Below are positions 7,320 through 61,000 of a stretch of 64,000 bases of DNA, piece by piece. The notes beneath the pieces were generated by a model. It saw nothing but the letters and a program-made list of their open reading frames with translations, ran no database searches and had not been told where the DNA came from. Position numbers and translations under genes: made by a program. Positions within the stretch are counted from its first letter, which is position 1. Every line of letters begins with the position of its first letter. The DNA lies in NCBI RefSeq assembly GCF_056712565.1, contig NZ_CM160072.1; one strand, given 5' to 3'.

Positions 7320-7375
7320 CAGATGCGTCATCAGAGTAAGTCGGATAAGGCGTTTACGCCGCATCCGACATTATT
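7320..7375. repeat. REP (repetitive extragenic palindrome) element between convergent rhtC and rhtB
   Basis: Motif ggataaggcgtttacgccgcatccgac, characteristic of E. coli REP/BIME sequences. Confidence 0.7.
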
Positions 7376-30177: not shown

Positions 30178-30987
30178 TTACTTTTTAACACCATACTGTG
30201 TAAACCATTCCAACATTCGCTGCCAGCCGTCTTTCGCAGATTCGGCATGATAGCTCGGACGATAATCGGCGTTGAACGCATGCCCTGCATCCGGGTACAC
30301 GATAATCTCTGCTTTCGCGTTTGCTGCCCGCAGCGCCTGGCGCATCGTTTCCACGCTCTCTTGCGGAATGCTGTTATCCTGGCCGCCATATAAGCCGAGA
30401 ACCGGAGCGTTAAGATCGGTTGCGATATCAACAGGTTGTTTCGGTGAATTCAGCGACTTATCGCCCGTCAGTTTGCCGTACCACGCCACTGCGGCTTTTA
30501 GCTGTGGATTATGCGCGGCATACAGCCAGGTGATACGTCCACCCCAGCAGAATCCGGTGATCATTAAACGATGAACATCGCCGCCGTTGCGGGAAGCCCA
30601 ACTGGCGACATGATCGAGATCGGCCAGCACCTGCGAGTCAGGCACTTTTGCTACCAGACCGCTAAGCAACGTGGGGATATCGGCAAAATCATTCGGATCG
30701 CCTTCGCGGAAGTAAAGTTCAGGTGCGATAGCCAGATACCCCTCCAGCGCCAGACGGCGACAAATGTCGCGGATATGTTCATGCACGCCAAAAATTTCCT
30801 GCACTACAATGACCACTGGCAGTGGGCCATCGCTTTGCTTTGGTCTGGCATGGTAAGCAGGCATGTTATCCCCTTGTGAAGGGATAGAGGTGAAGCCCGC
30901 CACAATCGCGTCGTCCGGAGTCTGAACGATGGTCGAAGCGAGAGGCGATGCAGCAGGTGCAAATCCAGATTGTTGTGTTGTTGCCAT
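30178..30987 (-). CDS. ysgA: Dienelactone hydrolase family protein YsgA
   Basis: From MATTQQSGFAPAA... (269 aa); alpha/beta hydrolase with GFCWGG nucleophile elbow. Confidence 0.88.
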   Translation of the reverse strand: MATTQQSGFAPAASPLASTIVQTPDDAIVAGFTSIPSQGDNMPAYHARPKQSDGPLPVVIVVQEIFGVHEHIRDICRRLALEGYLAIAPELYFREGDPNDFADIPTLLSGLVAKVPDSQVLADLDHVASWASRNGGDVHRLMITGFCWGGRITWLYAAHNPQLKAAVAWYGKLTGDKSLNSPKQPVDIATDLNAPVLGLYGGQDNSIPQESVETMRQALRAANAKAEIIVYPDAGHAFNADYRPSYHAESAKDGWQRMLEWFTQYGVKK

Positions 30988-46897: not shown

Positions 46898-47599
46898 ATG
46901 ACAACCTTAAGCTGTAAAGTGACCTCGGTAGAAGCTATCACGGATACCGTATATCGTGTCCGCATCGTGCCAGACGCGGCCTTTTCTTTTCGTGCTGGTC
47001 AGTATTTGATGGTAGTGATGGATGAGCGCGACAAACGTCCGTTCTCAATGGCTTCGACGCCAGATGAAAAAGGGTTTATCGAGCTGCATATTGGCGCTTC
47101 TGAAATCAACCTTTACGCGAAAGCAGTCATGGACCGCATCCTCAAAGATCATCAAATCGTGGTCGATATTCCCCACGGAGAAGCGTGGCTGCGCGATGAT
47201 GAAGAGCGTCCGATGATTTTGATTGCGGGCGGCACCGGGTTCTCTTATGCCCGCTCGATTTTGCTGACAGCGTTGGCGCGTAACCCAAACCGTGATATCA
47301 CCATTTACTGGGGCGGGCGTGAAGAGCAGCATCTGTATGATCTCTGCGAGCTTGAGGCGCTTTCGTTGAAGCATCCTGGTCTACAAGTGGTGCCGGTGGT
47401 TGAACAACCGGAAGCGGGCTGGCGTGGGCGTACTGGCACCGTGTTAACGGCGGTATTGCAGGATCATGGTACGCTGGCAGAGCATGATATCTATATTGCC
47501 GGACGTTTTGAGATGGCGAAAATTGCCCGTGACCTGTTTTGCAGTGAGCGTAATGCGCGGGAAGATCGCCTGTTTGGCGATGCGTTTGCATTTATCTGA
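46898..47599 (+). CDS. fre: NAD(P)H-flavin reductase Fre
   Basis: From [21 protein letters not shown] (233 aa); FNR-like fold. Confidence 0.93.
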
Positions 47600-47611
47600 G
47601 ATATAAAAAAA

Positions 47612-47630
47612 CCCGCCCCTGACAGGCGGG
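47612..47630. terminator. GC hairpin (cccgcccctgacaggcggg) flanked 5' by an A-tract; orientation ambiguous
   Basis: Inverted repeat directly after the fre stop; the A-run precedes it on the + strand, so it may terminate the convergent fadBA transcript instead. Confidence 0.45.
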
Positions 47631-47639
47631 AAGAACGGC

Positions 47640-47880
47640 AACTAAAACTTTATTCAGTGGCATTTAGATCTATGTCGCATCCGGCAATTGGTGCACGATG
47701 CCTGATGCGACGCTGGCGCGTCTTATCAGGCCTACATTGGTGCCGGATCGGTAGACCGGATAAGGCGTTCACGCCGTATCCGGCATACAGTGCCCGATGC
47801 GACGCTGCCGCGTCTTATCGGGCCTACAAAAGTTCTGAACCGTAGGCCGGATAAGGCGTTCACGCCGCATCCGGCAAGTG
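47640..47880. repeat. Cluster of REP/BIME elements between fre and fadA
   Basis: Several copies of gatgcgacgctg(g/c)cgcgtcttatc(a/g)ggcctac and ccggataaggcgttcacgcc(g/a)(t/c)atccggca motifs in alternating orientation. Confidence 0.8.
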
Positions 47881-47881
47881 G

Positions 47882-49054
<1,173 letters not shown>

Positions 49055-60962: not shown

Positions 60963-61000
60963 ATGCCGGATGCGACGCTGGCGCGTTTGCTCCAGCCTAC
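60963..61000. repeat. REP-like element downstream of rrnA
   Basis: gccggatgcgacgctggcgcgtttgctccagcctac resembles the REP consensus. Confidence 0.5.

What the first reader, a model, noticed from the sequence alone, without database searches (positions are those of the whole stretch)
47640..47880. Dense REP/BIME array between fre and fadA
At least four REP units in alternating orientation fill the approx. 280-bp spacer. Such arrays can bind gyrase and IHF, stabilise upstream mRNA, and serve as IS insertion targets. It is a known type of element, noted mainly as a possible recombination or assembly breakpoint.
Basis: seen in the sequence. Interest (0 to 1): 0.15.

Follow-up and report, generated by a model that had tools for sequence, protein, structure and literature searches.

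The report
REP array inside the fadBA 3' UTR

Summary
Window 47699-47876 holds four complete REP units in strictly alternating orientation (Z2+, Y-, Z2+, Y-), plus a 13-nt half-Y remnant at 47674-47686. Such units appear in none of the shuffled controls. Each folds at -20 to -23 kcal/mol (z about -5), and the whole spacer folds with z = -7 to -8.

By the published criteria it is a BIME-2: Y plus Z2 units, short linkers, tandem pairs. The gyrase and IS-target claims hold. The K-12 allele is listed as a BIME-2 with gyrase cleavage sites, and 31 of 5,426 E. coli genomes carry IS621 exactly in the Z2 tail of this array.

Copy number varies from one pair (about 64% of sampled genomes) to two (29%, as here) to three (7%, K-12). 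The alleles are related by single 91- or 98-bp gains or losses between direct REP copies.

The main correction concerns context. The "spacer" is the fadBA 3' UTR. The only intrinsic terminator is on the fadA strand, beyond the array, and it belongs to the known RNase E-processed, Hfq-dependent sRNA FadZ (47647->47603). The array is a lineage-specific insertion into the FadZ precursor.

Known element, low interest.

The parts
47603..47647 (-). FadZ sRNA (STnc790). It consists of a 17-nt single-stranded 5' part (UUUUAGUUGCCGUUCUU), a GC hairpin and a U-run. It is the 3' end of the fadBA transcript.
   Evidence: A 40-nt block is at least 90% conserved in 18 species. It was published as an RNase E-processed, Hfq-dependent sRNA of about 40 nt in Salmonella and E. 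coli. The K-12 3' end at 4,027,232 corresponds to window 47603. Its fold is shown.
47605..47630 (-). Intrinsic terminator of fadBA/FadZ: hairpin 47630->47612 followed by T7 at 47611-47605.
   Evidence: It is the only terminator-like site in 47300-48200, and it is on the minus strand.
47648..47673 (-). Unique AT-rich 26-nt stretch between the array and the FadZ 5' end. It contains the U-rich RNase E cleavage context AAAG|UUUU.
   Evidence: GC is 0.33 for 47631-47673, the stretch that includes it, against 0.61 in the array.
47674..47686 (-). Half-REP remnant: the head half of a Y unit (GTCGCATCCGGCA). It is present in all E. coli alleles examined and in E. albertii.
   Evidence: (D1, I7).
47687..47698 (.). 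Head-to-head linker ATTGGTGCACGA.
47699..47735 (+). Z2 REP number 1, identical to the Z2 consensus. Its tail 47725-47735, ATCAGGCCTAC, is the natural IS621 target.
47736..47750. Tail-to-tail linker ATTGGTGCCGGATCG.
47751..47785 (-). Y REP number 1 (GTAGACC...CCGGCA).
47786..47790 (.). Head-to-head linker TACAG.
47791..47827 (+). Z2 REP number 2. Its tail 47817-47827, ATCGGGCCTAC, is the sequence encoded by the IS621 bridge-RNA target loop.
47828..47841 (.). Tail-to-tail linker AAAAGTTCTGAACC.
47842..47876 (-). Y REP number 2 (35/35 to consensus). It is the first hairpin in the fadBA 3' UTR and starts 5 nt after the fadA stop codon.
47754..47824 (+). A Y-linker-Z2 unit that matches Rfam naRNA4 (RF02564) above its gathering score.
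   Evidence: 69.7 bits against a gathering score of 59.5. The Rfam family describes the Y-l-Z2 naRNA4 RNA transcribed from REP325.
47882..47884 (-). fadA stop codon (TAA).

Best explanation
The feature is a BIME-2: two tandem Z2-Y pairs of E. coli REP elements plus a half-Y remnant. It sits within the 3' UTR of the fadBA operon mRNA, between the fadA stop codon (5 nt away) and the RNase E-processed sRNA FadZ with its terminator (26 nt away). It is a selfish or expandable repeat that entered this slot in the Escherichia coli/albertii lineage. It grows and shrinks by one 91- to 98-bp unit at a time through recombination between direct REP copies, and it is a natural landing site for IS621. Shown: identity, anatomy, transcript position, polymorphism and IS621 occupancy. 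Taken from the literature on the K-12 allele: moderate gyrase cleavage. Inferred: the most likely function is at the RNA level. The four -20 to -23 kcal/mol hairpins would block 3'->5' exonucleases and so protect fadBA mRNA. This would matter most after RNase E has cut off FadZ and, with it, the terminator hairpin. [quoted passage not shown] At the DNA level the array probably acts as a gyrase site between the convergent fre and fadBA transcription units.
For: The unit calls and orientation come, and the folds. The BIME-2 criteria (y+z2, tandem copies, short linkers, copy number variable between strains) are quoted and are met here. The only terminator is on the minus strand, beyond the array. 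The FadZ identity of that terminator region rests. The first REP lies 5 nt from the stop codon, and the published rule is fewer than 16 nt. The K-12 allele is listed as a BIME-2 with gyrase cleavage sites, 0/1/0/3. Spacer lengths among 59 evenly sampled genomes were 180-183 (11), 190-191 (27), 271 (1), 282 (16) and 380 (4). The window allele converts to the 191-bp allele by one 91-bp deletion with 1 mismatch, with the breakpoint inside a 21-nt Y/Y identity. The K-12 allele is the ET245 allele plus a 98-bp tandem duplication whose breakpoint is ambiguous over 110 nt, with 3 mismatches elsewhere. IS621 sits at ATCAGGCCT|AC in three array contexts, in 31 genomes, and this matches the published target. 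The array is absent from the same slot in other genera, while FadZ is retained there.
Against: No expression or stability data exist for this strain, so the RNA-protection and translation-damping roles are extrapolated from other REP loci. Gyrase cleavage at the K-12 allele is modest (4 sites against 61 at tldD-yhdP), and no cleavage sites were seen with ciprofloxacin. About two thirds of strains manage with one pair, and other genera have none, so any function of the extra pair is dispensable. Predicted local structure at the FadZ cleavage site does not change with copy number. The named linker motifs (S, s, l, r) could not be checked against their published sequences.
Confidence: 0.85

Rival explanations
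1. The array is functionally neutral junk. It is a selfish REP cluster, spread by the RAYT/TnpA-REP system or by recombination, that is merely tolerated in a permissive slot between a stop codon and a terminator. It has no selected effect on fadBA, FadZ or DNA topology.
For: Copy number ranges freely from 1 to 3 pairs. Other genera have unrelated fillers in the same slot, such as ERIC-like elements and other palindromes, or nothing at all (23-146 nt from the stop codon to the FadZ core), while FadZ is kept. Only FadZ is conserved. Variation in BIME-2 copy number between strains is a general property.
Against: At least one Z2-Y pair was present in every E. coli allele examined and in E. albertii. 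The Y REP always sits 5 nt from the stop codon. Gyrase does cleave the K-12 allele.
Confidence: 0.35
2. The array acts mainly at the DNA level, as a strong gyrase site or topological insulator that relieves positive supercoils between the convergent fre and fadBA units. It may also form cruciforms bridged by HU and naRNA.
For: BIME-2 elements are over-represented among gyrase cleavage sites, independently of transcription. This locus carries cleavage sites in K-12. It lies between convergent genes. One unit scores above the Rfam naRNA4 gathering threshold, and HU and naRNA4 bridge DNA cruciforms such as those in REP elements.
Against: The cleavage counts are low and absent with ciprofloxacin and microcin. 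Many BIME-2 elements show none. The naRNA4 match reflects only shared REP sequence.
Confidence: 0.3
3. It is a BIME-1/RIP element that recruits IHF.
For: Only the general statement that some BIMEs bind IHF.
Against: There is no Z1 unit, no long L linker (the linkers are 5-15 nt) and no IHF consensus in the array; the only match in the window is at 30426.
Confidence: 0.02

Closest known systems
BIME-2 of E. coli (Gilson/Bachellier classification), specifically the fadA-fre BIME-2 of K-12
   Same: It has Y and Z2 REPs in alternating orientation, short linkers, tandem pairs and the same chromosomal slot. The flanks are shared, including the half-Y remnant and the Y REP 5 nt from the fadA stop codon.
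   Different: It has two pairs (282-bp spacer) where K-12 has three (380 bp). The unit order is also different (A-B, against B'-B''-A in K-12). This allele is at least 99% identical in only 214 of 5,462 matching records.
REP325 / naRNA4 (Rfam RF02564)
   Same: It has the Y-linker-Z2 two-hairpin unit, and one unit scores 69.7 bits against a gathering score of 59.5.
   Different: It lies at a different locus (yjdM-yjdN for REP325) and has two pairs rather than six units. The sense matching naRNA4 is the fre strand, not the fadBA strand. HU binding and transcription were not tested.
BIME-1 / RIP / RIB (IHF-binding BIMEs)
   Same: It contains a Y REP and sits at the 3' end of a transcription unit.
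   Different: It has no Z1 unit, no L linker and no IHF site, and it occurs in tandem copies rather than as a single copy.
3' UTRs that yield RNase E-processed sRNAs (FadZ of Salmonella, CpxQ and others)
   Same: The array is part of the fadBA 3' UTR, whose last 43-45 nt (~40 nt by northern blot) is FadZ.
   Different: In the other genera examined here, no Y/Z2 REP pair lies upstream of the FadZ core, which sits only 23-146 nt from the stop codon. In E. coli, 1-3 REP pairs extend this to 140-339 nt. The FadZ papers do not mention REPs.

Membership tests
E. coli REP (palindromic unit) | Imperfect palindrome of 30-40 nt with a mismatch in the stem | tested here: met
   The units are 35 and 37 nt. 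Each folds as a stem with an internal mismatch, at -19.7 to -23.4 kcal/mol and z -4.9 to -5.7. The criterion is quoted.
E. coli REP (palindromic unit) | Conserved GTAG tetranucleotide at the foot of the palindrome | tested here: met
   All four units carry GTAG/CTAC. The criterion is quoted.
E. coli REP (palindromic unit) | Extragenic location and high copy number in the genome | tested here: met
   The array lies between the fre and fadA coding sequences. A query containing the array hits a median of 37 places per genome, with the limit of 40 matching pieces per record reached in 3,620 records, across 5,425 genomes.
BIME-2 | Composed of y and z2 REPs in inverse orientation | tested here: met
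   The order is Z2+, Y-, Z2+, Y-, with 29-37 of 37 and 31-35 of 35 matches to consensus. The consensus sequences were confirmed and the definition.
BIME-2 | Occurs as tandem multiple copies whose number varies between strains | tested here: met
   There are two pairs here. Across E. coli there are one, two or three pairs: 38, 17 and 4 of 59 sampled genomes.
BIME-2 | Linkers are the named short motifs S, s, l and r | tested here: inconclusive
   The linkers are short (12, 15, 5 and 14 nt). I could not obtain the published motif sequences to compare them.
BIME-2 | Cleaved or bound by DNA gyrase in vivo | not testable with these tools
   Published Topo-Seq for the K-12 allele gives 0/1/0/3 cleavage sites. 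Nothing is available for this strain.
BIME-1 (IHF-binding RIP/RIB) | z1 + y separated by a long L linker that carries an IHF site | tested here: not met
   There is no Z1 unit, the linkers are at most 15 nt, and the IHF consensus WATCAANNNNTTR is absent from the array.
Rfam RF02564 naRNA4 | Covariance-model score at or above the gathering threshold | tested here: met
   47754-47824 (+) scores 69.7 bits against 59.5. Three other placements score 40-48 bits, below threshold.
Rfam RF02564 naRNA4 | Transcribed as a discrete RNA that binds HU | not testable with these tools
   No expression data are available. The match follows from shared REP sequence.
IS621 (IS110 family) natural target | 11-nt target ATCAGGCCTAC or ATCGGGCCTAC with a CT core | tested here: met
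   Both motifs are present, at 47725-47735 and 47817-47827. Natural insertions occur at ATCAGGCCT|AC of this array in 31 genomes. The target is quoted.
Translation-damping REPs (Liang, Rudd and Deutscher 2015) | REP lies fewer than 16 nt downstream of the stop codon of the upstream gene | tested here: met
   The sequence is TAA-CCACT-TGCCGG..., a gap of 5 nt. The rule is as summarised. The effect on FadA was not tested.
FadZ sRNA (neighbouring part) | Conserved 3'-terminal ~40 nt of the fadBA 3' UTR: U-rich RNase E site, single-stranded seed and Rho-independent terminator | tested here: met
   The sequence block is at least 90% conserved in 18 species. The fold is and the terminator.

The most novel reading that the evidence does not exclude
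The REP array is a strain-variable module of the FadZ precursor. After RNase E releases FadZ, the REP hairpins become the new protective 3' end of fadBA mRNA, which would uncouple mRNA stability from sRNA production. Natural variation could then tune or abolish FadZ output, and so OmpC porin repression, between E. coli lineages. That variation comprises one to three pairs and, in about 0.6% of genomes (mostly Shiga-toxin-type lineages such as O103 and O121), a 1.3-kb IS621 inserted antisense between fadA and FadZ.
Probability: 0.25. Interest if true: 0.4.

Novelty: already known. Interest (0 to 1): 0.18.

Why it matters
As a REP/BIME-2 array it adds nothing new. The class, its gyrase affinity, its copy-number polymorphism and its use as an IS621 target are all published, and the K-12 allele of this locus is already listed as a BIME-2. 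The practical value is in annotation. The fre-fadA 'spacer' should be read as the fadBA 3' UTR carrying the sRNA FadZ, and the repeat array lies inside the sRNA precursor. That gives a cheap natural experiment (alleles with one, two or three pairs, and IS621-interrupted alleles) for asking whether REPs affect the biogenesis of a 3'-UTR-derived sRNA. It may also explain why the FadZ 5' end could not be mapped from RNA-seq coverage in E. coli.

Tried and rejected
1. Tandem Repeats Finder found no array at a score of 30 or more. The two 91-92-bp units differ too much in their linkers, so the repeat was established with the repeat finder and consensus scans instead.

2. My first regex scan dropped overlapping units. 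I replaced it with iterative local alignment.

3. The NC_000913.3 copy held here carries no REP features, so curated REP names could not be transferred.

4. An ungapped single-deletion model from the window allele to the 180-bp S65EC allele failed (41 mismatches) because of small indels in the unique part. MAFFT shows that S65EC carries the 'B' unit only.

5. Liang et al. 2015 could not be opened. I used its summary in the RepRanger paper.

6. The supplements of the IS621 paper contain no mention of fadA.

7. The weak Rfam hit to anti-hemB (21.8 bits, E 0.038) coincides with FadZ and is dismissed as terminator-like chance similarity.

8. ORFs of 40-62 aa inside the array are dismissed as by-products of the GC-rich palindromes.

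Full report
**Source and genes.** The window is Escherichia coli. The 901 bases around the finding are 100% identical to the type strain ATCC 11775 / DSM 30083. RefSeq annotates the flanking genes as fre (NAD(P)H-flavin reductase, plus strand, ending at 47599) and fadA (3-ketoacyl-CoA thiolase, minus strand, 47882-49045). The spacer is 47600-47881, 282 bp.

- Repeat finding, a degenerate REP pattern and iterative alignment to the Y, Z1 and Z2 consensus sequences all give the same anatomy.
- From left to right: a 13-nt half-Y remnant (47674-47686), a 12-nt linker, Z2 (47699-47735, +, identical to consensus), a 15-nt linker, Y (47751-47785, -), the linker TACAG, Z2 (47791-47827, +), a 14-nt linker and Y (47842-47876, -).
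- The consensus sequences I used from memory agree with those printed in the IS621 bridge-RNA paper.
- The REP pattern has 0.00 expected matches in shuffles. Five shuffled windows gave no REP calls, and the rest of the 64 kb has only two lone REPs.
The spacer folds with z = -8.25 (fadA strand) and -7.04 (fre strand). Each unit alone folds at -19.7 to -23.4 kcal/mol with z about -5.
- The array occupies 203 of the 282 bp, so it does not fill the spacer.

**Classification.**
- Ton-Hoang et al. (PMC3333891) restate the published classes. BIME-1 is z1+y, single copy, with a long L linker that often carries an IHF site. BIME-2 is z2+y, in tandem copies, with short linkers and a copy number that varies between strains.
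- This array is y+z2 in two tandem pairs with linkers of 5-15 nt. It has no Z1 unit and no IHF consensus; the only match in the whole window is at 30426.
- The gyrase statement does apply. Sutormin et al. (PMC6379681) found gyrase cleavage sites over-represented in BIME-2. Their table DS3 lists 'BIMEs2 ... 280 ... fadA>-<fre' with 0, 1, 0 and 3 sites for Cfx, RifCfx, Micro and Oxo. That signal is real but modest.
- Rfam's naRNA4 model scores one Y-linker-Z2 unit (47754-47824, +) at 69.7 bits, above its gathering score of 59.5. This shows shared REP sequence, not a demonstrated RNA gene.

**Population comparison.** I used a REP-free query made of the last 300 bp of fre joined to the last 300 bp of fadA. 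It matched 5,425 of 5,426 complete E. coli genomes.

| Spacer length | Array | Records (of 59 evenly sampled) |
|---|---|---|
| 180-183 bp | one pair | 11 |
| 190-191 bp | one pair | 27 |
| 271 bp | two pairs | 1 |
| 282 bp | two pairs | 16 |
| 380 bp | three pairs (includes K-12) | 4 |

- The window's own allele is at least 99% identical in 214 of 5,462 matching records.
- The alleles are related by simple events. Removing 91 bp from the window allele gives the 191-bp allele with one mismatch, and the breakpoint can lie anywhere in a 21-nt identity shared by the two Y REPs.
- The K-12 allele is the ET245 allele plus a 98-bp tandem duplication whose breakpoint is ambiguous over 110 nt, with 3 mismatches elsewhere.
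- Two different two-pair alleles exist, with their units in opposite order.
- This is the copy-number polymorphism already described for BIME-2 in general.

**IS insertion.**
- In 38 genomes the two flanks were not joined.
- In 31 genomes an IS621 copy lies between fre and fadA.
- In three different contexts the junctions are identical...TTATCAGGCCT | IS621 | AC ATTGGTGCC... That is the CT core of the Z2 tail.
- This matches the natural IS621 target ATCAGGCCTAC and the bridge-RNA-encoded ATCGGGCCTAC (PMC11208160).
- Both motifs are present in the window, at 47725-47735 and 47817-47827.
- Whether the 31 cases represent one event or several cannot be decided here.

- The only intrinsic-terminator-like site in 47300-48200 is on the minus strand: hairpin 47630->47612 followed by seven T. 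It lies beyond the array as seen from fadA, so the array is transcribed as part of the fadBA 3' UTR.
- Loci from other Enterobacterales show that the array is present only in E. coli and E. albertii, which has one pair.
- Other genera have unrelated fillers in the same slot: ERIC-like elements in Citrobacter and Pluralibacter, other palindromes in Enterobacter, or almost nothing.
- By contrast, the block TTAGTTGCCGTTCTTCCCGCCTGTCAGGGGCGGGTTTTTT is at least 90% conserved in 18 species. It stays next to fadA even where fre is not the neighbouring gene.
- This block is the known sRNA FadZ (STnc790). It is about 40 nt, Hfq-dependent, cut out of the fadBA 3' UTR by RNase E at a U-rich site, and it represses OmpD/OmpC. 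It was shown in Salmonella, with a northern blot in E. coli as well (PMC10703908).
- Bar et al. mapped its 3' end in K-12 at 4,027,232, four bases beyond the fre stop codon. They could not determine its 5' end (PMC8175672).
- In the window FadZ is 47647->47603 on the minus strand.
- Neither FadZ paper mentions REPs.
- The distance from the fadA stop codon to the FadZ core is 241 nt here and 23-146 nt in other genera.

**Mechanism.**
- Shown: the array is a BIME-2 lying between the fadA stop codon (5 nt away) and FadZ (26 nt away). It is polymorphic through recombination of whole units, and it is used by IS621.
- From the literature on the K-12 allele: it is cleaved by gyrase.
- Inferred: the hairpins act as 3'->5' exonuclease barriers for fadBA mRNA. 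This would matter most once RNase E has removed FadZ and the terminator hairpin.
- Inferred: the stop-proximal Y REP satisfies the '<16 nt' rule for dampening translation of the upstream gene.
- Predicted structure around the FadZ cleavage site and seed is the same with one, two or three pairs. I therefore see no sequence-based reason to expect copy number to change FadZ accessibility.
- The neutral-passenger reading remains a serious rival, because the extra pair is dispensable in most strains and the whole array is absent from other genera.

**Verdict.** This is a correctly spotted, ordinary and already catalogued element. IHF binding is wrongly attributed to it. The mRNA it belongs to is fadBA, and its immediate neighbour is the FadZ sRNA. 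Interest is low. The only mildly novel angle is the untested possibility that REP copy number or the IS621 insertion modulates FadZ output.

Noticed in passing
window 47603-47647 (minus strand): The left end of the 'spacer' is the known 3'-UTR-derived sRNA FadZ (STnc790) with its terminator. It is nearly invariant across Enterobacterales and travels with fadA rather than with fre.
   Followed up: yes
L007 6301-7860; L128 1752-3268; L129 1752-3221: IS621 is inserted at ATCAGGCCT|AC of the Z2 REP in 31 of 5,426 E. coli genomes, many of them O103, O121 or other STEC-type strains. It lies antisense to fadBA and between fadA and FadZ, so it may disconnect FadZ from its promoter. The copy in RM11911 is 47 bp longer (1,326 against 1,279 bp).
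   Followed up: partly
L011, L057 (Citrobacter), L045 (Pluralibacter), downstream of fadA: An element of about 125 bp with ERIC-like core sequence fills the same slot between the fadA stop codon and FadZ. It gives local scores of 13-16 of 22 to the ERIC1R and ERIC2 primers, which I recalled from memory. The slot seems to collect different transcribed repeats in different genera.
   Followed up: partly
L057 (Citrobacter youngae), between fre and FadZ: About 2.3 kb carrying two extra open reading frames is inserted between fre and the FadZ terminator. In E. cloacae (L018), Superficieibacter (L015) and Pluralibacter (L045), no fre homologue was found within 2.5 kb beyond FadZ.
   Followed up: no
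L066 (Escherichia sp. ESNIH1), L037 (Pseudescherichia vulneris): These have a fadA-fre spacer of 53-54 bp with a different hairpin (GGCCCGACGG...CCGCCGGGCC) and no FadZ core. FadZ appears to have been lost or replaced there.
   Followed up: no
window 7336-7370 (-) and 60964-61000 (+): These are two isolated, degenerate REPs (Y-like and Z2-like), the only other REPs in the 64-kb window.
   Followed up: no
window 47674-47686: A 13-nt half-Y remnant is conserved, with point differences, at the FadZ-proximal edge of the array in all E. coli alleles examined and in E. albertii. It can pair with the head of the adjacent Z2 (I7). Its origin is unexplained; it may be a truncated REP or a recombination scar.
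   Followed up: partly
K-12 coordinates 4,027,232 and upstream (L006 2733 onward): Bar et al. 2021 could not define the FadZ 5' end in E. coli from RNA-seq coverage. The six REPs a short distance upstream of FadZ in K-12, which map to many genomic places, may be the reason. This is my inference.
   Followed up: no
window 47612-47637 (plus strand): On the fre strand the FadZ hairpin is followed by AAGAACGG and not by a T-run, so fre has no recognisable intrinsic terminator. Its transcripts may read into the array antisense to FadZ and the fadBA 3' UTR.
   Followed up: no
window 47657-47845 (+), 47650-47772 (-), 47732-47863 (-): Open reading frames of 40-62 aa run through the REP array. They are most likely artefacts of the GC-rich palindromes.
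   Followed up: no
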